NCBI RefSeq assembly: GCF_030013595.1
Contig: NZ_CP122768.1
Direction: 5' to 3' (one strand)
Length of the DNA: 64,000 bases
From: Escherichia coli
Lineage (GTDB): Bacteria; Pseudomonadota; Gammaproteobacteria; Enterobacterales; Enterobacteriaceae
The notes under the pieces were generated by a model. It worked only from the letters and a program-made list of their open reading frames with translations, had not been told where the DNA came from and made no database searches. A program made the translations under genes and the position numbers. Position 1 is the stretch's first letter. The number at the start of each line of letters is the position of its first letter. This document shows positions 397 to 54,181 of this stretch, one piece after another.

Positions 397-1032
397 TTAG
401 CGAGCTAATATATTCAAAGAATTTAACAATTGAGTGTCGAGTGTTTCAGTTGCAGGAATCGGTAATCCATTCGCAATGCGGTAATTTTTCACAGACAGCC
501 TTGTGGATGGCCCCATTATGCCGTCAATATTTCCGTTATAAAATCCCCTGTCCAGCAATGCGAACTGAACTCGCATAATCAATCGCTTACGTTTCTCTGC
601 ATCAGAAGCAAGCCCATTACTCGTACGGTTAACCTCTGAAGTTCCAACAGAACTCGTGTTAGTGGTTCTATTATTATCGTTAGAACGAAGTGCACGCACC
701 GAGGAAGAGGACGATGAGGAACTTGCACCTGAACTTGAAGAACCAGATGAACTTGGTGAGCTGTATGTTTTTGGATAATAGGGGGTACTTCCACCATAGT
801 ATCCACCACCTGATGAGGATCTATGAGAGCTATGGCTCCTATGAGAACTATGGCTTCGATGCCCTGCGATATAAAATGGGACTTCCGTGTTAAGTGGAGC
901 TATCACTAAATCATGCTCATTAAGAGTCATACCAGGTAAATCACTCGCTCCTGTAGATGAATCGCTTGCCCATACAGAATTGTTGAGAGCCAAAAATCCC
1001 GGAAGTAGAGCAGCAAAATTAAACTTTTTCAT
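397..1032 (-). CDS. hxsA: HxsA-type His-Xaa-Ser repeat protein (signal peptide, tandem H-x-S triplets, Ser/Gly/Tyr-rich tract, C-terminal peptidoglycan-binding domain)
   Basis: Translation from MKKFNFAALLPGFLALNNSVWA (Sec-like signal) contains HRSHSSHRSHSSHRS, then SSPSSSGSSSSGASSSSSSSS, then a PG_binding_1-like C-terminus (LLDRGFYNGNIDGIMGPSTRLSVKNYRIANGL). Start ATG overlaps upstream gene stop (ATGA). Confidence 0.8.
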   Translation of the reverse strand: MKKFNFAALLPGFLALNNSVWASDSSTGASDLPGMTLNEHDLVIAPLNTEVPFYIAGHRSHSSHRSHSSHRSSSGGGYYGGSTPYYPKTYSSPSSSGSSSSGASSSSSSSSVRALRSNDNNRTTNTSSVGTSEVNRTSNGLASDAEKRKRLIMRVQFALLDRGFYNGNIDGIMGPSTRLSVKNYRIANGLPIPATETLDTQLLNSLNILAR

Positions 1033-2141
1033 AAAATTGGTCTCGGTGATTGATGAAAACGGCCTTTTGAGGAACTGAAATAGCCAGCACAGGAAGGCTT
1101 CTGAGTACATTCATCACATTCTTTTGGATAGTAATTTTTCCAATCAGAGATCGACTGAACAGCAAGCTCCCTAGCCCTTTCAGGAAGATAACACAAAGGA
1201 TAATTAAAAATTGTCAGAGGTATGCCTGACCTGTATGCAGCGTCTATGGCAGAGATTATTTTCTCACTATAACTACTGTGATCAATGAAGATGGTGGACC
1301 AGTTTTTTCGTGCCCAACCGATAGGCTCCAACCCCATAAGGGAAATCTGATTGATGTTGGAGAACACACGGCCAGCGAATTCTACGATATCATCCAATTC
1401 GGTATAGTTAGCCAGTGTAGGAATAACTCTAAGTTCGATATTAATCCCCAAGTTTCCTGCATTGATTAACCCTTTAACCGTTTCATTAAATGCGCCATCA
1501 CTCCCTACCAGATGATCATGCACAAGTGGTCTTGATGAGTAGAGCGGGATACCAAAGGTGATTTTGATCTTTTTGCTTCGCTTTGCCATTTCCTGTGTAA
1601 AGTTGGTATCAGCAAATTTGCGTCCGTTTGTTAAAACATGTAAAGCAGTATCTGGTGAATTCTCGATGATAAAATCAATGAAGTGAAGGAAGTCATCCCC
1701 ATATAGCAAAGGTTCACCACCGCTGACCCCAACAACTCCGTTCAAGCCAAATGAAGCTATAGCAAGAGCTGATTGGGTAAGTAGCCAGTCATCATTTATT
1801 TTCTTTGGTGGCTGCGAACAAAACAGACACAAGTTATTGCAGCGTTCCGTAACTAAGACAGTATTATGATTGGCTTTGCGTGACAGAATAACGCGTATCA
1901 TATTGCCATTGTTGATTATCCCAATATCTCCATCTTCAATTGACTCAAATAATTCAGTGCTAATAACAGAGAAATCAAAGCATGGTGGAATGGCATCATT
2001 ATTGCCTTCAGCAACTACTAGCAAATTGGGCAAAAAGAATAAAGGGTTCACTGGTTTTTGTTTGCATAACCGATAGAACCCCGTGGGCACGTTCTCTGTA
2101 GAAGCAAAATGAAAGATATCGTTCCTGATAACCTCAGACAT
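1029..2141 (-). CDS. Radical SAM maturase of the His-Xaa-Ser system (HxsB/HxsC-type; which of the two is not resolved)
   Basis: 370 aa ORF with CNNLCLFC (CxxxCxxC radical SAM cluster) and a C-terminal Cys-rich region (CDECTQKPSCAGY); sits between the other rSAM gene and hxsA with overlapping stop/start codons. Confidence 0.8.
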   Translation of the reverse strand: MSEVIRNDIFHFASTENVPTGFYRLCKQKPVNPLFFLPNLLVVAEGNNDAIPPCFDFSVISTELFESIEDGDIGIINNGNMIRVILSRKANHNTVLVTERCNNLCLFCSQPPKKINDDWLLTQSALAIASFGLNGVVGVSGGEPLLYGDDFLHFIDFIIENSPDTALHVLTNGRKFADTNFTQEMAKRSKKIKITFGIPLYSSRPLVHDHLVGSDGAFNETVKGLINAGNLGINIELRVIPTLANYTELDDIVEFAGRVFSNINQISLMGLEPIGWARKNWSTIFIDHSSYSEKIISAIDAAYRSGIPLTIFNYPLCYLPERARELAVQSISDWKNYYPKECDECTQKPSCAGYFSSSKGRFHQSPRPIL

Positions 2142-3522
2142 ATGCCCATCCTTTTAGCATCTCAGCCTTCGAACCACCCTCTGAGATGCAGTTCATCAGA
2201 TACCTGAACATCCCCTTGTGATATTGACAAAACGTTGAACGACTCCTATCACCGACAGGCTCACCCTGTACACTTATGTTCTGGCATGGATCTGAACCAC
2301 AAAATGGTTGATATGCACATGTATCACAACCTGGCAGAGCAAAATTGAACGATGAACTCAATACTGCGTTATAGTAAGGACTATCAGAAAATGATAGCGT
2401 CTTAACTTCACCCGCACTGAACTCCGTTTCAGGATTCACCTTCTGCAACATACGGCTCTCATCGCTACCATATACTCGACCGTCATAATTGAAAAGAATA
2501 CTGTTAAGCACGACTCCACTTGGAGACTTTAAATCCGCATAACCACTAAAACCGGGATTGAAGATCCTTTTCAGATGAATGGAGGCCGAATGTTCCACAA
2601 CCCTTATCCCTTCATTATTAATCTTAAGGATTTCATCTATCAACGAGGCATAGAAGCTGAAGTATTCGTCCATAGAAAAGGTGAAAGAAGCTTTTTGTGC
2701 AAACCCATAGGGACTAACAGGTCGGATAAACATGTCCTTGAGACCAAGAGACAAGTGAGCCTGAACAATCGATTCAGGACGTCTGATAAGCTCTTTAGTA
2801 ACTGTAGTAACCGTTGCAACGCGGCCAGCACCTAAAGAGTGTTTGATAGCCTCTACCCCTGACACTGTTCTACTGTACGCAAGCCCACGACCAAGAATTC
2901 GATTACTGTTGTGAACAACTTCCTCACCATCAAGCGACACAGAGAACGTTATGTTCCGGTCTCTCGACCATTCAATCATATCCTCATTCAAGACAGACAG
3001 ACTTGATGCCACCACCATCTCAAAATTGGTTCTTCCCAGCGTTTCAGCACATTGATCATAGATGCTCTGAATTAAATCAAACCGCAAGAGAGGCTCCCCA
3101 CCCTGTATCTCTATTTTGTAAGGTGGCGTTGATAGTTTTTTAATAGCCGAAATAATATCGGGGATGAGCTCAGGATTTAGGTCGTAACCTGAGGCATTAA
3201 CAGAAGCTCTACTAACCTGGCAATACTTGCATGTATGGTCACAACGTAATGTGGGTACAATCATGAAAATTGGCCTGACAGCCAGTTCATTCATCAATCG
3301 TTTTGCAAAAGCAGAACTTAAAGCATAGGGAGTTATAGCAGATGAGCTTTCACTGGTTATGAAAAGCTTACTTTCTAGCACGTTTGATTGCTCCGAACTA
3401 ATTCGCTCATCAGAAAGATCAATAAGGTCTTGCTCACCAATGAAATGATGAAAACCTGCAAGGTTGCTTATAAACACCTGTCCATTAGGCAATCTGTCAA
3501 AATTAAATGGCATCAATTCCAT
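2134..3522 (-). CDS. Radical SAM/SPASM-type maturase of the His-Xaa-Ser system (HxsB/HxsC-type)
   Basis: 462 aa ORF with CDHTCKYC radical SAM motif and C-terminal auxiliary-cluster cysteines (CDTCAYQPFCGSDPCQ...FCQ); stop overlaps next gene start by 8 nt; start overlaps hxsD stop (TAATG). Confidence 0.8.
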   Translation of the reverse strand: MELMPFNFDRLPNGQVFISNLAGFHHFIGEQDLIDLSDERISSEQSNVLESKLFITSESSSAITPYALSSAFAKRLMNELAVRPIFMIVPTLRCDHTCKYCQVSRASVNASGYDLNPELIPDIISAIKKLSTPPYKIEIQGGEPLLRFDLIQSIYDQCAETLGRTNFEMVVASSLSVLNEDMIEWSRDRNITFSVSLDGEEVVHNSNRILGRGLAYSRTVSGVEAIKHSLGAGRVATVTTVTKELIRRPESIVQAHLSLGLKDMFIRPVSPYGFAQKASFTFSMDEYFSFYASLIDEILKINNEGIRVVEHSASIHLKRIFNPGFSGYADLKSPSGVVLNSILFNYDGRVYGSDESRMLQKVNPETEFSAGEVKTLSFSDSPYYNAVLSSSFNFALPGCDTCAYQPFCGSDPCQNISVQGEPVGDRSRSTFCQYHKGMFRYLMNCISEGGSKAEMLKGWAYV

Positions 3523-3836
3523 TATGAAAGCCTCTCATCAACACTGCGAAGCACTTTATGGACAATAGAGTCTCTCAACGCCCCTGTTTTATGCTGTAGC
3601 TTTTCTCGCAAAGAGTAATCATTAAGCAGCCTATCGAATTCATAAAGGAATTTGGGATTATCGTTTTCAAAAGAGATTATCCAGTGGGAAACGTCTTCAT
3701 GGAGTTTCCATCGAGTAAGCGGAGTCATCCAATATAGACTATTGCGTATAACCCATTCAGAATATAGTTCTTTCTCAAACACTCTTTCGCTCATTGCAAT
3801 TATCTTCCAATACAAATATTCATGATCAGCAACCAC
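3522..3836 (-). CDS. hxsD: HxsD-type small protein carrying the LLNDYxLRE signature
   Basis: 104 aa ORF containing FDRLLNDYSLREKLQ; first gene of the four-gene minus-strand operon. True start may be an internal Met (MSERVF). Confidence 0.75.
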   Translation of the reverse strand: MVADHEYLYWKIIAMSERVFEKELYSEWVIRNSLYWMTPLTRWKLHEDVSHWIISFENDNPKFLYEFDRLLNDYSLREKLQHKTGALRDSIVHKVLRSVDERLS

Positions 3837-4046: not shown

Positions 4047-4307
4047 ATGTTCCGTTGTCCGCTTTGTGGCGCATCCGCCCGAATCCGCACCAGTCGTCCG
4101 GAAAATGATTCAAACACCGTGCGGCAAAAGTATTACCAATGTAACAACCTAGAATGCGGCGTATGCTTCTCAACACTGGAAGCTTTCCATAAATTCACAT
4201 CAAAACACGCCTCCGGCGCTCACTCTTCAGAAGGTATCCCGTGGCATGAACTGCCAGCTTCACACAAAGGAAACAATCAGATGAGTTTGCCCTTACCTCA
4301 AAATTAA
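4047..4307 (+). CDS. ogr: Ogr/Delta-family zinc-finger late-gene transcription activator
   Basis: MFRCPLCGASARIRTSR...YYQCNNLECGVCF matches the P2 Ogr pattern (MFHCPLC..ARTSR...YHQCQNVNCSATF); C-terminally extended relative to P2 Ogr. Confidence 0.75.
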   Translation: MFRCPLCGASARIRTSRPENDSNTVRQKYYQCNNLECGVCFSTLEAFHKFTSKHASGAHSSEGIPWHELPASHKGNNQMSLPLPQN

Positions 4308-4367
4308 CAGGCAGAATTGCCGGAGTAACAAAAAAGAGATAGATTACGCGCGGGTGCCTTTCGGCTG

Positions 4368-4631
4368 ATGGTCGGAGGGAATACCCGAAGGCCAGATGTG
4401 GAAAGGCCCCGGAAAACATTTCTGTTTAACCGAGGCCCTAACCGCATTACCTTGACAAGTGAAAGGTTAGCGCCTCTCCGGAAAAGGAGCAAGTGCTATG
4501 TCGCAAAAATCGCTTACGGCCATCATGTTCTGCGTGACGGCAATCCTCATCATCTGGATGTTGCACGGTTCGCTGTGCGAAATACGGATGAGATTCTGGG
4601 GAGCGGAGTTTGCGGCGTTCTTACAGTGTAA
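4368..4631 (+). CDS. mok-like reading frame overlapping hok (translational coupling frame of a hok/sok locus)
   Basis: 87-codon ORF in a different frame that starts upstream of and overlaps the hok-like frame, the arrangement typical of mok. Confidence 0.4.
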   Translation: MVGGNTRRPDVERPRKTFLFNRGPNRITLTSERLAPLRKRSKCYVAKIAYGHHVLRDGNPHHLDVARFAVRNTDEILGSGVCGVLTV

Positions 4632-4638
4632 GCAGTAA
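4498..4638 (+). CDS. hok: Hok/Gef-family type I toxin, 46 aa
   Basis: ATG at 4498 preceded by GGAGCA; peptide MSQKSLTAIMFCVTAILIIWMLHGSLCEIRMRFWGAEFAAFLQCKQ has one hydrophobic helix and the Hok-type C-x-T...SLCEIR motif; the 5' element GGGTGCCTT (4352-4360) is complementary to AAGGCACCC (4695-4703), resembling tac/fbi pairing. Confidence 0.7.
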   Translation: MSQKSLTAIMFCVTAILIIWMLHGSLCEIRMRFWGAEFAAFLQCKQ

Positions 4639-4724
4639 GGAAACCGCGACGGGGGAGCAATCCCCCGTCAATCGGTTGCCAGGGTAAGGTCGATAAGGCA
4701 CCCTATCTCACAGACATGAACAAC

Positions 4725-4760
4725 AAACCCGCAACGTAAAAACTGCGGGTTTTCTTTTTG
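4725..4760 (+). terminator. Rho-independent terminator downstream of hok
   Basis: aaacccgcaacgtaaaaactgcggguuu hairpin followed by a T-run. Confidence 0.6.
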
Positions 4761-4902
4761 GTGTCCTTACTGACTTGAAACGGTGATCAGACTATAAGAC
4801 AAAGCCCACAATGTAGCGGGCTTACTCCCCTCTCCCTCCACTGAATGTGGACACATGGTGGAACGAAGATATATAAAACATTATAAATCAATCGGTTACT
4901 GA

Positions 4903-4928
4903 AAGAAAAAAGGCCGCAGAGCGGCCTT
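4903..4928 (-). terminator. Rho-independent terminator ending the minus-strand lambdoid gene set
   Basis: aggccgcagagcggcct hairpin with an A-run on plus strand (T-run on minus strand) immediately 3' of the ORF ending at 4949. Confidence 0.55.
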
Positions 4929-4948
4929 TATGGTTTATTGACAATTGA

Positions 4949-5164
4949 TTAAGACGTGTGGCACTTATTGGCACACCAATAGCAACCATTCACCCGGGAA
5001 TATCCTTTGGCCTTTGCCTCTGTTACCGCCGAAGAACAATCACTATAGTAACCAAGGTAATCGCGGTTAGCTACAGCAGGAAGATATGAACATTCCTCAG
5101 CATGCACCTCATGATCGCCATTGCTCTGAGCATTTTTGTTCACGTAATAGTGTTTAAAAACCAT
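4949..5164 (-). CDS. Hypothetical small Cys-rich phage protein
   Basis: 71 aa ORF, terminator immediately downstream; no family recognised. Confidence 0.4.
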   Translation of the reverse strand: MVFKHYYVNKNAQSNGDHEVHAEECSYLPAVANRDYLGYYSDCSSAVTEAKAKGYSRVNGCYWCANKCHTS

Positions 5165-7471: not shown

Positions 7472-7670
7472 ATTTATTCTCCTGTAAATAAAAAGGACCA
7501 TCAGCGGCCCCGTAACTGACATTTTATTAACGTTTGAAGATATGGATATTTATCAGGGTTTACCGTTTTCTGAACCCTGGATATGTTAAGCATTCAGCCC
7601 GCCAGTGGTGGGACGCTGGCTCATCATAGAGAAAGAGGGATGGCTGATTACCTCTGATCAGGGAAATCAC

Positions 7671-7940
7671 ATGCAGTTTTTACATAAAAGAATGCATTTA
7701 AATGCAGGAGATACGGTAGTGGTTGACTGCTCTCATCAGTGCAATATTTTGCTGATGACAGATACAAACTTTAATAACTACCGCAACGCAAGAAGCTTTC
7801 ATCATCACGGTGGTGGCGGTTTTTTTCAGAGATTACCGGCCCACCTTCATGTACCGCATTCAGGTTACTGGAATATTACAATTGATTTAGGAGGCGGAAG
7901 TGCAGCTATTCGGCACTCCATTTCCGTCATCCCAGCATAG
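7671..7940 (+). CDS. Hypothetical phage protein, antisense to the late operon
   Basis: ATG at 7671 with AGGGA RBS (the listed ORF begins at a GTG at 7605); hairpin plus T-run downstream at about 8196-8235. Confidence 0.4.
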   Translation: MQFLHKRMHLNAGDTVVVDCSHQCNILLMTDTNFNNYRNARSFHHHGGGGFFQRLPAHLHVPHSGYWNITIDLGGGSAAIRHSISVIPA

Positions 7941-8298
7941 CAACTCGCCTTTAGCCTGAGTAAATGCGTCCTCAAGGACGGCAACGAGTCGCAGTTGCGT
8001 GCCGTCCTTTACACAGCGTGTGCAGGCAATACCTTCAGAACTTTCATTATGCCGAGCTCATACAATTTCACCATTTTGTTCAACTACAACGCTCATAATT
8101 TTCTTACACTTTTTTAATAAACCACACCAATAACAACCATCACCGATACCTTTTGTATGCTGTTATTTTGCATTACGGTGTAACGGCAAGAGCCCCCTCC
8201 CCGCCCTGAAAGGCTCTGTGTTTTTGATGTGCGCCTGATGTGGCTCAGATACAAAAAAGCTCGCAGTAGCGAGCTAACAGAAAATATGAAGCATGTTT

Positions 8299-8577
8299 TT
8301 ATCCACGAAGTATGACGTTGAATTCATCCATACCGACACGGCTGGCTATCTCGTTGTATTCCTCAACAAGAGCCAGCAATTCTGAATTAGCAGCCATGAA
8401 CTCTTCAAAAACCTTATGGATGGCATCACTGTTTAATAAAACAATGTTCTTTCCTGAAAGGCGATCAGGGGTAGAAAATATAACTGTCAAACGACTAAAG
8501 GCCCTGGCTCGTTCAGCATTAACATCCTCAATACGCTGCAACAAGCTGGAGCACCTGGAAATATCATCAATATTCAC
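8299..8577 (-). CDS. Hypothetical protein (cargo between Q and lysis genes)
   Basis: 92 aa ORF followed by a minus-strand hairpin terminator (gctcgcagtagcgagc with T-run) near 8254-8280. Confidence 0.4.
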   Translation of the reverse strand: MNIDDISRCSSLLQRIEDVNAERARAFSRLTVIFSTPDRLSGKNIVLLNSDAIHKVFEEFMAANSELLALVEEYNEIASRVGMDEFNVILRG

Positions 8578-9095
8578 TCTACTCCTGCCATCTGGATGAT
8601 AATCATTTCACGGAGAGAAGCACTCAGAAGTACCACTGAAGTATAGCTGGTGACCAGCTACTTACACATCTATTGCCATCCTGCTGATGATAAGTCGACA
8701 TTAGCCCTTCTGTCTATAAACGAAACAAAGGATAAGTTCAGGTTTTAAACACACTGCCAGGATAAAGTATTGTATACAGTATAGAAGAGCGTTATTGAAT
8801 GACATAAAAAACCAGACCTAATCCCTTATCCGGAAGATATATCAAATAAACGGGGAAAATGTATTAAGATGGCGTTCCTATTCTCTCCATCCCTGATGTC
8901 CACGTAACTCGTTATAGAATCAGAACGCCATCTGAATACACACAAAAAAGCTGACTTCACACCCTCCAGATGTGTGAACGCAGTGCCCGACCACGTGCTT
9001 TCGCAACCAGCACAAATCATTTTAAAGCATCGAAAAACGATCAGAATATATCAGAACTTCCTAGCATCCTGCTTGGCTTAGATATTAATCGAGGA

Positions 9096-52934: not shown

Positions 52935-53945
52935 TTAGATATGGGTAACGATTTCTTTAATCAGCGGCGGACCTTTAAAAATAAAACCAGAATAAATTTG
53001 CACCAGTGAGGCCCCCGCAGCAATCTTTTCACGCGCAGCGATAACCGAGTCAATGCCGCCAACACCGATGATCGGTAAGCGACCGTTTAATTCCTGTGAC
53101 AAGCGGCGAATAATTTCTGTGCTTTTTAACTGAAGCGGACGACCACTTAAGCCACCGGTTTGATCACAATTTTTCATTCCCTGAACCAGAGAACGATCGA
53201 GCGTGGTATTGGTTGCAATAACGCCATCAATATTATGGCGAACTAAACTATCGGCAACCTGGATCAATTCTTCTTCAGAAAGATCCGGCGCGATCTTCAC
53301 TGCGATCGGCACATATTTATGGTGCATCGCTTGCAAATCATTTTGCTTATTTTTAATCGCGGTTAAGAGATCATCCAGCGCTTCGCCATATTGCAGTGTG
53401 CGTAGTCCTGGGGTATTCGGCGATGAAATATTGATGGCGATATATCCCGCATAAGCATAGATTTTTTCCATACAAATCAGATAGTCATCTTTACCCTGCT
53501 CCACCGGCGTATCTTTATTTTTGCCGATGTTAATACCCAGGACGCCATCATAATGGGCTTTTTTTACGTTCTCTACGAGGTTATCAACGCCAAGATTATT
53601 AAAGCCCATACGGTTGATCAAACCTTCGGCATCTACCAGACGAAAGAGACGCGGCTTGTCATTACCTGGCTGTGGACGTGGCGTGACGGTACCGATCTCG
53701 ATCGATCCAAATCCCATCGCGCCTAACGCGTCAATGCACTCCCCGTCTTTATCAAGACCGGCTGCCAGACCAAGCGGATTTTTAAACGTCAGGCCCATGC
53801 AGTTAACAGGTTTCGCAGGCACTTTCTGCCGCACCAGTGCTTCAAACGGCGTTCCTGTAATACGGCGTAATTGCTGAAAAGTAAACTCATGAGCACGCTC
53901 TGGATCGAGCTGGAAAAGGGCTTTACGAACGAAGGGGTAGTACAT
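52935..53945 (-). CDS. pyrD: Dihydroorotate dehydrogenase (quinone)
   Basis: 336 aa from [21 protein letters not shown]. Confidence 0.95.
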
Positions 53946-54181
53946 GAACTCTCCTGGATTCCCGGTGTGCAAACCGGGGGCGTATTATGTGCGAGTTCGG
54001 ACCAAAAGGGAATTGACCTGTGGCAATAAATAGCAAACGTTTTCTTATTGCGCTTTTTTTATGCTTTTTTTGGCTTTTCTTCCTCAGATAAATCATTTCG
54101 ACTCGCGGACGCCCTCTGTCAGACTGACCGAATTGTTATCAATGTTAACAAAACAAGAACAATTGGTTATAAGGAGAGAGT

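What the first reader, a model, noticed from the sequence alone, without database searches (positions are those of the whole stretch)
4340..4760. hok/mok/sok-like type I toxin-antitoxin locus next to ogr
A 46-aa hydrophobic peptide with the Hok-family SLCEIR motif (4498-4638) is overlapped by a longer out-of-frame ORF (mok-like, 4368-4631). It is flanked by complementary 5' and 3' elements (GGGTGCCTT at 4352 and AAGGCACCC at 4695) and a downstream terminator, the classic hok mRNA fold-back design. It is not at any K-12 hok position I know and may stabilise this element or act in abortive infection.
Basis: partly seen in the sequence, partly recalled or inferred. Interest (0 to 1): 0.5.

Follow-up and report, generated by a model that had tools for sequence, protein, structure and literature searches.

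The report
Prophage-borne hok/sok toxin–antitoxin module
This is a real but ordinary hok/sok-type "host-killing" toxin–antisense RNA module, carried as the last gene of a P2-like prophage and already annotated in about a fifth of complete E. coli genomes; its one unusual trait is that its relatives lack the usual mok leader reading frame.

Summary
The sequence features are all present at the stated coordinates. The 46-aa ORF (4498-4638) is a Hok/Gef toxin by Pfam (E 4e-8) and PHROG 251 (E 7e-23). The leader matches Rfam sok/hok at 49.4 bits, below the gathering score of 59.

The 5'/3' complementarity is real. The full-length transcript folds end-to-end (z = -7.4). A 3'-shortened transcript re-pairs its 5' end with an internal box. 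Across 20 relatives, the same two 5' columns covary with both partners, which is the hallmark of hok mRNA.

The 87-codon "mok-like" ORF is not conserved. In 15 of 19 diverse relatives no start codon in any frame reads into hok. Sok is inferred only from positional homology to the R1 sok promoter.

The module is already known. The ogr-hok pair occurs in 1178 of 5426 complete E. coli genomes, where RefSeq names it "Hok/Gef family protein". It is also in P88-like phages, Salmonella P2-like prophages, Stx phages and plasmids. A 2026 preprint lists a peptide two residues different (cluster 72_1621) in its over-expression toxicity panel and does not list it among the three non-toxic homologs.

Its role in the prophage (addiction, abortive infection or help with lysis) is untested. 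Interest is low.

The parts
4047..4307 (+). ogr/Delta-like zinc-finger gene (86 aa), the P2-type late-gene activator. It is the neighbour of the module, not part of it.
   Evidence: ORF. NCBIfam PRK09678 at 43 bits, below its cut-off. PHROG 603, transcriptional regulator. RefSeq names it 'ogr/Delta-like zinc finger family protein'.
4317..4345 (+). Putative hok promoter: -35 TTGCCG (4317-4322), 17-nt spacer, -10 TAGATT (4340-4345). The predicted start is the G at about 4352.
   Evidence: The -10 hexamer TAGATT/TAGAAT/TAAATT lies exactly 6 nt upstream of GGGTGCC in 15 of 16 relatives that sit in unrelated upstream contexts. Homology to non-P2 copies begins at 4340. The scan tool reported no promoter at its threshold. 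The assignment is inferred, not mapped.
4352..4759 (+). Predicted full-length hok mRNA (about 408 nt).
   Evidence: The fold has MFE -174.9 kcal/mol and z = -7.4, with the 5' end paired to 4688-4703. Homology in other elements ends at about 4713 or about 4771.
4352..4362 (+). tac element, the 5'-terminal GGGUGCCUUUC.
   Evidence: It pairs with fbi in the full-length fold and with ucb in the shortened fold. Alignment columns 43 and 44 covary with both partners.
4401..4410 (+). ucb-like box GAAAGGCCCC, the alternative partner of tac. In the full-length fold its 3' part pairs with the GAGG region.
   Evidence: Inverted repeat I5. tac-ucb stem in the 325-nt fold. Pairs 43-86 are UA:14/CG:6 and pairs 44-85 are CG:14/GC:5.
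4432..4476 (+). Sok-target (sokT-like) hairpin beginning with the invariant GAGG (4432-4435). GAGG is the positional equivalent of the R1 mok Shine-Dalgarno, but no start codon follows it.
   Evidence: Hairpin of -19.7 kcal/mol, z = -4.8. Helix 6 is 99.1% paired in 20 sequences. GAGG is invariant. The loop is variable and carries indels.
4396..4457 (-). Predicted Sok-like cis-antisense RNA (about 60 nt): a single-stranded 5' tail followed by a long hairpin and UUUCC.
   Evidence: Fold of -26.4 kcal/mol, z = -3.4. The region is covered by the Rfam sok model. No transcript data are available, so this part is inferred.
4464..4492 (-). Putative sok promoter on the minus strand: -35 TTGCTC (4492-4487), 17-nt spacer, -10 TAACCT (4469-4464). 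The -35 overlaps the hok Shine-Dalgarno, as in R1.
   Evidence: It occupies the same position and spacing as TTGCGC-17-TATCCT in an IncFII hok/sok locus. All 17 relatives examined have TA[A/T]CCT with a -35-like hexamer 17-18 nt upstream: TTGCTC, TTTACT or TTGACT. It falls below the threshold of the generic scan.
4484..4489 (+). hok Shine-Dalgarno AAGGAG, 8 nt before the ATG. It sits in a local hairpin and is paired with the upstream CUCC.
   Evidence: Sequence. Helix 8 and the SD/anti-SD pairing appear in the folds.
4498..4638 (+). hok toxin gene (46 aa).
   Evidence: Pfam PF01848. PHROG 251. It is 91-96% identical to proteins RefSeq names 'Hok/Gef family protein'. It is the only Hok-like ORF in the window.
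4368..4631 (+). It is judged not to be a gene.
   Evidence: The ORF is present. It is confined to the window's allele group and is absent or closed in diverse relatives. It matches no family.
4642..4677 (+). Stable stem-loop directly after the stop codon. It is the predicted 3' end and protective hairpin of the processed (truncated) mRNA.
   Evidence: Hairpin of -25.3 kcal/mol, z = -5.1. Helix 14 has 5 of 9 pairs with compensatory changes.
4688..4703 (+). fbi element (core AAGGCACCC, 4695-4703), which pairs with the mRNA 5' end.
   Evidence: (I4). Helices 1 and 2: helix 2 has 4 of 4 pairs with compensatory changes, and helix 1 varies only by G-U wobbles.
4725..4759 (+). Intrinsic-terminator-like hairpin (4725-4752) plus a U tract.
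   Evidence: It is conserved in P88 and other copies as far as about 4759-4771.

Best explanation
This is an intact hok/sok-type type I toxin-antitoxin module. It belongs to the 46-aa Hok subfamily called 'cluster 72' in a 2026 preprint. It is carried as a moron between ogr and the right attachment end of a P88-like (P2-family) prophage.

How it most likely works:
1. A weak constitutive promoter (-10 TAGATT) starts the mRNA at about 4352. (Inferred.)
2. The full-length mRNA of about 408 nt is locked by pairing of its 5' end (tac) with the fbi box at 4688-4703. The hok Shine-Dalgarno and start codon are held in helices. (The fold is computed here; the 5'-3' pairing is also supported by covariation.)
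3. Slow 3' trimming back to the stable hairpin at 4642-4677 removes fbi. The 5' end then re-pairs with the ucb box at 4401-4410, and the GAGG...GCCUC hairpin forms. (The alternative fold is computed and supported by coupled covariation. The processing itself is inferred from the R1 paradigm.)
4. A short, unstable antisense RNA is transcribed from the opposite strand, from about 4457 to about 4396. It pairs with that leader and causes repression and decay. (Inferred from positional homology to R1 sok.)
5. When transcription of the locus stops, through loss of the element or shut-off by an infecting phage, the antisense RNA decays first. Hok is then made and depolarises the inner membrane. (Inferred from the family.)

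The main departure from R1 is that this subfamily has no conserved mok leader ORF. Hok must therefore be translated from its own strong Shine-Dalgarno sequence. The antisense RNA would act about 30-90 nt upstream of it, by cleavage, refolding or blocking ribosome standby. (Inferred.)

The biological role is unresolved. My rough weighting is prophage addiction about 0.4, abortive infection about 0.3, help with lysis about 0.15, and no current role about 0.15.
For: Toxin identity:
- Pfam HOK_GEF, E 4.2e-8.
- PHROG 251, E 7.4e-23.
- NCBIfam Hok models as sub-threshold hits.
- RefSeq annotation 'Hok/Gef family protein'.
- 38% identity to R1 Hok and 43% to K-12 HokA across the conserved core.

RNA leader:
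- Rfam sok RF01794 scores 49.4 bits, E 5.6e-10.
- The same model gives 87.2 bits on a canonical IncFII locus and 59.7 bits on a Salmonella relative.

Fold-back and switch:
- Perfect tac/fbi repeat.
- Full-length MFE with the ends paired, z = -7.4.
- The 325-nt form switches to tac-ucb, z = -6.2.
- The RNAalifold consensus contains the 5'-3' helix.
- 97.3% of cells are paired, against 38-43% in slid controls. Twenty compensatory pairs are seen, against 1-7 in slid controls.
- Columns 43 and 44 covary with fbi (UA:13/CG:6 and CG:14/GC:6) and with ucb (UA:14/CG:6 and CG:14/GC:5).

Promoters:
- The hok -10 is conserved 6 nt upstream of GGGTGCC across unrelated contexts.
- The sok -10 and -35 are conserved at R1-equivalent positions.
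- The Sok-like hairpin has z = -3.4.

Absence of mok. As a positive control, the same scan finds an ATG preceded by GAGG in the IncFII locus.

Toxicity: peptide 72_1621 differs from the window's by 2 residues. It is listed in the preprint's test-panel table (Table S2), whose text names only three other homologs as non-toxic out of 45 tested (preprint 10.1101/2025.08.07.668861).

Context and spread.
Against: - No transcript, processing or toxicity data exist for this exact locus.
- The window scores below the Rfam gathering threshold (49.4 against 59).
- The generic sigma-70 scan found no promoter on either strand. Both proposed promoters match consensus weakly (8 of 12 and 6 of 12).
- The antisense hairpin is followed only by UUUCC, which is a poor intrinsic terminator.
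- Equilibrium folding does not show the hok Shine-Dalgarno opening much in the shortened form. The unpaired probability moves from 0.20 to 0.26 in the window and in the opposite direction in some relatives. How translation is activated without mok is therefore unexplained.
- The structures were derived from these same sequences, which inflates the paired-cell contrast with slid controls (see the caveat).
- The window's peptide carries two substitutions (T10M, S33R) relative to the tested one.
Confidence: 0.85

Rival explanations
1. This is a canonical three-gene hok/mok/sok locus. The 4368-4631 ORF, or a shorter version starting at TTG 4452, is mok, and its translation is needed to open the hok ribosome-binding site.
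For: The ORF exists and stays open across the hok start as far as 4631, ending 7 nt before the hok stop, much like R1 mok. The same open frame is present in the window's close allele group, which accounts for many of the 29 of 49 unique sequences that have an upstream start. R1 strictly needs mok translation (PMC9841398).
Against: - In 15 of 19 diverse relatives no ATG, GTG or TTG upstream of hok reads into it in either alternative frame. Frame 0 is closed 6-27 nt upstream in all 20 sequences.
- An indel in the hairpin loop shifts the frame between the window and P88.
- Most members have TGA in that frame at the Cys-Glu codons.
- ATG 4368 lies 16 nt from the 5' end, inside a stem, without a Shine-Dalgarno sequence. 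TTG 4452 lies 16 nt after GAGG, which is too far.
- The product matches no protein family.
Confidence: 0.1
2. This is an inactive relic, like most K-12 chromosomal hok loci. The peptide or its regulation has decayed, and the locus does nothing.
For: K-12 hokA is interrupted by IS150. One relative (L091) has lost the 5' tac region. In strain STEC384 an IS2 sits between ogr and hok. The window's peptide has two private substitutions.
Against: - All elements are intact in the window: promoter, tac, ucb, hairpins, fbi, terminator and ORF.
- The module is kept at 65-99% identity in E. coli, Salmonella, Citrobacter and Klebsiella, on phages, prophages and plasmids, with compensatory RNA changes.
- A peptide differing by 2 residues is in the preprint's toxicity panel and is not among the three homologs it reports as non-toxic.
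Confidence: 0.05
3. The module is the same, but its selected role is phage defence by abortive infection. A superinfecting lytic phage shuts off host transcription, the antisense RNA decays, and Hok kills the cell before the phage yields progeny.
For: - R1 hok/sok reduces T4 plating (cited in PMC8621323).
- P2-family prophages carry anti-phage cargo. Here the adjacent gpD|ogr slot holds variable cargo: HxsABCD in the window and GapS6a in another strain.
Against: The same preprint states that hok is not enriched near defence systems (section heading; discussion). PADLOC has no model that hits this peptide. The published T4 effect was modest and was obtained on a high-copy plasmid. Nothing was tested here.
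Confidence: 0.3
4. The module is the same, but its role is to assist lysis and release when the prophage is induced, as shown for hokW-sokW of Stx phage Sp5.
For: In Sp5, mitomycin C removes sokW RNA, HokW accumulates in a RecA-dependent way, and deletion halves phage release (PMC8621323). An 81%-identical copy of the present module lies in Stx phages downstream of lom.
Against: HokW is a different Hok: 51 aa and 34% identical over 35 residues. The 'MokW-like' name on this peptide is only the PHROG family label. To my knowledge P2-type prophages are generally not SOS-inducible; this was not tested here.
Confidence: 0.15

Closest known systems
Hok 'cluster 72' (representatives 72_1621 and 72_1589) in Escalera-Maurer et al., bioRxiv 10.1101/2025.08.07.668861; in RefSeq, WP_001416438.1 'Hok/Gef family protein'
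   Same: The 46-aa peptide is the same apart from 2 residues (T10M, S33R), and the coding DNA is nearly the same. The cluster is rated high-abundance, and the preprint's Table S2 lists 72_1621 in its test panel, whose text names only three other homologs as non-toxic. The RefSeq protein sits next to ogr in the same arrangement.
   Different: That work analysed only the coding sequence. It states explicitly that Mok, Sok and the mRNA ends were not analysed. The fold-back and switch anatomy, the missing mok and the ogr/attR position are described here.
hok/mok/sok of plasmid R1 (IncFII), the paradigm type I toxin-antitoxin system
   Same: Shared features are the Hok core motif (38% identity), tac-fbi closure of the full-length mRNA and the tac-ucb alternative. 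Also shared are a GAGG-containing target hairpin, a sok promoter whose -35 overlaps the hok Shine-Dalgarno, a stable post-stop hairpin, and fbi followed by a terminator.
   Different: - The toxin is 46 aa rather than 52 aa.
- No conserved mok ORF follows the GAGG.
- The leader is shorter, 146 nt from the predicted start to the ATG.
- The Rfam score is 49 bits against 87 bits.
- The module sits on a prophage, not a plasmid.
E. coli K-12 hokA (with the mokA and sokA pseudogenes)
   Same: It is the best NCBIfam match and the closest K-12 protein (43% identity). The motifs MxQK...W-M...SLCE...AAFLxCK are shared. The locus also has a TAGAAT -10, a GGGTGC 5' end and a GCACCC 3' box.
   Different: The window scores 36 bits against the equivalog cut-off of 89, so it is not an orthologue. 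K-12 hokA is split by IS150 and sits at a different genomic site.
hokW-sokW of Stx2 phage Sp5 (Takada et al. 2021, PMC8621323)
   Same: It is a hok-type type I toxin-antitoxin system encoded by a temperate phage. It is the only prophage hok with an experimentally assigned role.
   Different: HokW is 51 aa and only 34% identical. It has a different leader (GCGGGTGCTTGAGGCTATCTGCC, from the primers). It is a lambdoid-phage locus. The Stx-phage copy related to the present module is a separate 46-aa gene downstream of lom.
tisB/istR-1 (ribosome-standby control of a type I toxin)
   Same: The resemblance is only functional. An antisense RNA binds well upstream of an autonomous, structured toxin ribosome-binding site. 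This rests on my own knowledge of the literature and was not tested.
   Different: There is no sequence relationship, and the antitoxin there is trans-encoded. Standby binding has not been shown for any hok.

Membership tests
Hok/Gef toxin family (Pfam PF01848; PHROG 251) | A hydrophobic peptide of about 50 aa matching the family profile, with the conserved Cys-Glu core and C-terminal (E)xAA motif | tested here: met
   Pfam E 4.2e-8 over residues 7-44. PHROG 251 E 7.4e-23 over residues 1-46. C27, E28, E37, A39 and A40 are invariant in 21 subfamily members.
Hok/Gef toxin family (Pfam PF01848; PHROG 251) | Toxic to the cell when over-expressed | not testable with these tools
   From the literature only. 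A peptide differing by 2 residues (72_1621) is listed in the preprint's test-panel table, and only 19_179, 60_1482 and 69_1540 were reported non-toxic.
hok/sok type I TA locus (R1 paradigm) | Long-range pairing of the mRNA 5' end (tac) with a 3' box (fbi) that closes the full-length mRNA | tested here: met
   Perfect 9-nt repeat. MFE with ends paired, z = -7.4. Helix 2 has 4 of 4 compensatory pairs and helix 1 shows only wobble changes.
hok/sok type I TA locus (R1 paradigm) | Alternative pairing of tac with an internal box (ucb) in the 3'-shortened mRNA, with coupled covariation | tested here: met
   The 325-nt fold forms the tac-ucb stem. Columns 43 and 44 covary with both ucb and fbi.
hok/sok type I TA locus (R1 paradigm) | A short cis-antisense RNA (Sok) with its own promoter opposite the leader | tested here: inconclusive
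   The -35 and -10 are conserved at R1-equivalent positions in 17 of 17 relatives. The hairpin has z = -3.4. However, the generic promoter scan found none, and no transcript data are available.
hok/sok type I TA locus (R1 paradigm) | [quoted passage not shown] | tested here: not met
   An ORF exists in the window but lacks a Shine-Dalgarno. In 15 of 19 diverse relatives no start codon in any frame reads into hok. The positive control on the IncFII locus finds GAGG-N8-ATG. The translational requirement itself is not testable here.
hok/sok type I TA locus (R1 paradigm) | Slow 3' processing of a stable mRNA, combined with an unstable antitoxin | not testable with these tools
   Only the protective hairpin at 4642-4677 is seen.
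Rfam RF01794 (sok / hok leader) | Score at or above the gathering threshold of 59 bits | tested here: not met
   The window scores 49.4 bits, E 5.6e-10. The Salmonella relative L096 scores 59.7, the Stx-phage relative 33.1 and a canonical IncFII locus 87.2. This is a divergent branch that straddles the threshold.
NCBIfam NF007290 HokA (equivalog) | Score at or above the curated cut-off of 89 bits | tested here: not met
   36.4 bits, and 43% identity to K-12 HokA.
P2-family (Peduoviridae) prophage cargo | Location between the late genes (gpD, ogr) and the prophage end | tested here: met
   The order tail genes, gpD, cargo, ogr, hok, host gene ihfA is seen in two E. coli strains. The same module is in phage P88 and other Xuanwuvirus genomes. 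Salmonella prophages show gpD-ogr-hok.

The most novel reading that the evidence does not exclude
The 46-aa Hok subfamily may be a natural mok-independent variant of hok/sok. It keeps the whole tac/fbi/ucb folding switch and the GAGG-containing Sok target, but Hok is translated from its own Shine-Dalgarno sequence. The antisense RNA would then have to act at a distance, about 30-90 nt upstream of the toxin ribosome-binding site, through RNase III cleavage, RNA refolding or blocking a ribosome standby site. In that case the invariant GAGG would be a structural or standby element rather than a leader-peptide Shine-Dalgarno.
Probability: 0.5. Interest if true: 0.4.

Novelty: already known. Interest (0 to 1): 0.2.

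Why it matters
As a finding it matters little. The gene is already named in RefSeq in more than a thousand E. coli genomes. It belongs to a catalogued Hok cluster, and a near-identical peptide is in a published over-expression toxicity panel and is not listed among its non-toxic members.

Two points may interest specialists:
- This very common prophage-borne branch keeps every RNA element of the classic hok folding pathway but has lost, or never had, mok. That makes it a natural test case for whether leader-peptide coupling is essential to hok control.
- The module is fixed at one position, immediately after ogr at the right end of P88-like prophages of E. coli and Salmonella, next to a variable cargo slot. 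This gives a clean genetic system (P88 with and without hok) to ask what hok does for a prophage, which the recent Hok survey says remains to be studied.

Tried and rejected
1. Direct-switch model. I proposed that in the shortened mRNA GAGGC captures GCCUC and so frees the hok Shine-Dalgarno from the CUCC anti-SD, and that Sok binding reverses this. Partition-function folding of 19 relatives showed only a small and inconsistent change in Shine-Dalgarno accessibility, for example 0.20 to 0.26 and back to 0.20 in the window, and 0.17 to 0.05 in four relatives. The model is not supported as stated.

2. Generic promoter scan. It found no sigma-70-like site on either strand of 4200-4950. The promoter assignments therefore rest on conservation and on homology to R1.

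3. Small leader ORFs. I looked for a small conserved leader ORF or a near-cognate start (CTG, ATT, ATC, ATA in frame 0) in the target hairpin and found none. The GTG AAA GGT TAG mini-ORF is not conserved.

4. Literature search for hok loci lacking mok. It returned nothing relevant. A search for hok in P2-like phages found no description of this arrangement.

5. Species-representative genome scan. Only 6 loci were found, three of them on contigs labelled Collinsella, Planococcaceae and Xanthomonas. I take these to be contaminated bins or assemblies, not real hosts.

6. IMG/VR loci. The best 80 hits are all 96% identical at the protein level, and most are cut 3 nt after hok at a prophage-prediction boundary. 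They added little 3' information.

7. PADLOC. It has no model that hits this peptide or ogr.

8. Identity with hokW or K-12 hokA. Both were considered and rejected.
Full report
**1. What is there**

- A 46-codon ORF at 4498-4638 encodes MSQKSLTAIMFCVTAILIIWMLHGSLCEIRMRFWGAEFAAFLQCKQ.
- It is preceded by AAGGAG (4484-4489), 8 nt upstream of the ATG.
- An 87-codon ORF lies in another frame at 4368-4631.
- GGGTGCCTT (4352-4360) and AAGGCACCC (4695-4703) form a perfect inverted repeat.
- A 9-bp hairpin at 4725-4752 is followed by a U-rich tract.
- An 86-aa ogr/Delta-like zinc-finger gene ends at 4307.

**2. Identity of the peptide**

- Pfam gives HOK_GEF, E 4.2e-8.
- PHROGs gives family 251, 'MokW-like host killing', E 7.4e-23 over the full length.
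- NCBIfam gives only sub-threshold hits: HokA at 36.4 bits (cut-off 89) and the Hok subfamily at 25.6 bits (cut-off 73).
- Identity is 43% to K-12 HokA, 38% to R1 Hok and 34% to the HokW-type sequence.
- It is therefore a Hok, but none of the named ones.
- A protein search found a tight 46-aa subfamily in Escherichia, Shigella, Salmonella and Klebsiella oxytoca. Every source-given name in the table is Hok/Gef or HokA; many rows carry no name.
- It is the only Hok-like ORF in the 64-kb window.

**3. It is already annotated and widespread**

- The 501-bp region matches 1549 of 5426 complete E. coli genomes. The feature under the match is 'Hok/Gef family protein', usually next to 'ogr/Delta-like zinc finger family protein'.
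- The ogr+hok pair as a unit (at least 80% of a 674-bp query) is in 1178 genomes.
- It is 93-98% identical in P2-family phages of the genus Xuanwuvirus: P88, P884B11, 500465-2, Chuche, PhiR44_2 and Citrobacter phage Shae_phiSM.
- It is about 81% identical in many Stx phages, where it lies downstream of lom. It also occurs on some plasmids.
- In two E. coli strains the gene order is tail genes, gpD, variable cargo, ogr, hok, then the host gene ihfA.
- In Salmonella P2-like prophages the order is gpD, ogr, hok, host DNA, although the peptide is only 65% identical.
- Homology to copies outside P2-like elements starts at 4340, the -10 hexamer, and ends at about 4713 or about 4771. These positions delimit a self-contained module.

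**4. RNA anatomy**

- Rfam's sok model is built on the sense strand of the hok leader. It matches 4352-4511 end to end at 49.4 bits (E 5.6e-10 on 701 nt), below the gathering score of 59.
- As calibration, a canonical IncFII hok/sok scores 87.2 bits, a Salmonella relative of the present module 59.7 and the Stx-phage relative 33.1.
- The predicted 409-nt transcript (4352-4760) folds with its 15 5'-terminal nucleotides paired to 4688-4703. The fold has z = -7.4, and none of 100 shuffles did as well.
- Cutting the RNA after the strong post-stop hairpin (4352-4676) changes the MFE. The 5' end now pairs with GAAAGGCCCC at 4401-4410, and a GAGGC...GCCUC hairpin (4432-4476) forms.

I aligned 20 relatives spanning 67-99% identity (A3).
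- RNAalifold recovered the 5'-3' helix.
- For the consensus fold, 97.3% of cells are paired, against 38-43% when partners are slid. Twenty pairs carry compensatory changes, against 1-7 when slid. No shuffle of 500 reached the observed covariation score.
- The four-pair extension of the 5'-3' helix has compensatory changes at all four pairs.
- The same two 5' columns (43 and 44) covary with the 3' box (UA:13/CG:6 and CG:14/GC:6) and with the internal box (UA:14/CG:6 and CG:14/GC:5).
- Coupled covariation of one segment with two alternative partners is, from established knowledge of this family, the signature of the hok folding pathway. PMC9841398 summarises the tac/fbi/ucb scheme.
- One caveat applies. 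The structures were derived from these sequences, so the paired-cell contrast is inflated. The compensatory counts are the stronger evidence.

**5. Promoters and Sok (inferred)**

- A -10 hexamer (TAGATT, TAGAAT or TAAATT) lies exactly 6 nt upstream of GGGTGCC in 15 of 16 relatives, whose upstream DNA is otherwise unrelated.
- On the minus strand, TTGCTC-17 nt-TAACCT (4492-4464) occupies the position of TTGCGC-17-TATCCT in the IncFII locus. Its -35 overlaps the hok Shine-Dalgarno.
- All 17 relatives examined keep TA[A/T]CCT with a -35-like hexamer 17-18 nt upstream.
- An RNA of about 60 nt started there (about 4457 to 4396) has a free 5' tail and a long hairpin (z = -3.4).
- The generic scan reports no promoter, and I have no transcript data. 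Sok is therefore an inference.

**6. mok**

- The 4368-4631 ORF is real in this copy and in its near-identical allele group.
- Among 19 diverse relatives, 15 have no ATG, GTG or TTG upstream of hok that reads into it in either alternative frame.
- Frame 0 is closed 6-27 nt upstream of the ATG in all 20 sequences, with no start codon, near-cognate ones included.
- An indel in the hairpin loop shifts the frame between the window and P88.
- Most members have TGA in that frame at the Cys-Glu codons.
- ATG 4368 has no Shine-Dalgarno and lies in the 5' stem.
- The invariant GAGG (4432-4435) is the counterpart of the R1 mok Shine-Dalgarno, but no start codon follows it.
- The same scan finds GAGG-N8-ATG in the IncFII control.
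- I conclude that this subfamily has no conserved mok. The recent Hok survey explicitly did not analyse Mok or Sok, and I found no paper noting this absence.
- How Hok translation is then activated is open. My direct Shine-Dalgarno-release model was not borne out by ensemble folding.

**7. Function**

- A 2026 preprint clusters Hok peptides and lists representatives for an over-expression toxicity test. Its Table S2 lists 72_1621 (MSQKSLTAITFCVTAILIIWMLHGSLCEIRMSFWGAEFAAFLQCKQ, 2 residues from the window's) and 72_1589 (the Stx-phage type).
- The text says 42 of 45 homologs were toxic and names three others as the non-toxic ones.
- The preprint also reports enrichment of hok in prophages and no enrichment near defence systems, and says the prophage function remains to be studied.
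- The only assigned prophage role is for the unrelated hokW-sokW of Sp5, which helps phage release after induction.
- Addiction, abortive infection and lysis help all follow from the same release mechanism. They cannot be separated by sequence analysis.

**8. Verdict**

The module is a known, annotated, very common prophage moron, so interest is low. The missing mok is the only point that might repay an experiment.

Noticed in passing
window 397-3836 (-): A complete His-Xaa-Ser system (HxsA, HxsC, HxsB, HxsD; two radical-SAM maturases), with all four proteins above their NCBIfam cut-offs. It fills the slot between the prophage gpD gene (left of the window) and ogr. In another E. coli strain the same slot holds GapS6a plus a 930-aa protein. 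In P88 and the Salmonella prophages no annotated gene lies between gpD and ogr. This looks like a variable cargo slot of P88-like prophages, so Hxs could be a candidate anti-phage system. PADLOC gave only weak viperin-like radical-SAM hits.
   Followed up: partly
window 4600-5100 (junction about 4907-4935): Window 4600-4935 equals the sequence that lies next to ihfA in other strains. From 4907 onward the window is 100% identical to the lysis-gene side of a lambdoid prophage in other strains, where terminase and portal genes occupy the other side. The two matches overlap in a 29-bp terminator-like hairpin (AAAGGCCGCAGAGCGGCCTTT). No complete RefSeq E. coli genome has this junction, but one IMG/VR contig (L011) does at 95% identity. 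The cause may be a secondary integration site or recombination between prophages; this is not resolved.
   Followed up: partly
L100 (IncFII plasmid pMTY1886_IncFII) 340-560: In this plasmid the Hok protein is 100% identical to my recalled R1 Hok sequence, and the upstream ATG preceded by GAGG is in frame with hok. That arrangement would give an N-terminally extended Hok rather than an out-of-frame Mok as described for R1.
   Followed up: no
window 4949-5164 (-): A 71-aa Cys/His-rich ORF immediately right of the junction matches PHROG 4298 (unknown function, E 4.5e-32). It has no NCBIfam or PADLOC hit.
   Followed up: no
L097 3286-3895 and L091 1-619: In Salmonella, HicA/HicB type II toxin-antitoxin genes lie within 0.2-2.5 kb of the hok copy. 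In L097 they sit just beyond hok at the prophage end, so two toxin-antitoxin types cluster at one element boundary.
   Followed up: no
L004 (E. coli STEC384) 7628-8856: An IS2 element is inserted between ogr and hok, truncating ogr. The hok module downstream remains 99.8% identical to the window.
   Followed up: no
window 53940-54013 (-): The only Rfam match above a gathering threshold in the window is the PyrD leader (97.9 bits). This places the window in an Escherichia-type chromosome near pyrD.
   Followed up: no
L005, L006, L009: Near-identical copies of the module occur on short contigs of assemblies labelled Collinsella sp., Planococcaceae bacterium and Xanthomonas pisi. These are probably enterobacterial contamination of those bins or assemblies.
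   Followed up: no
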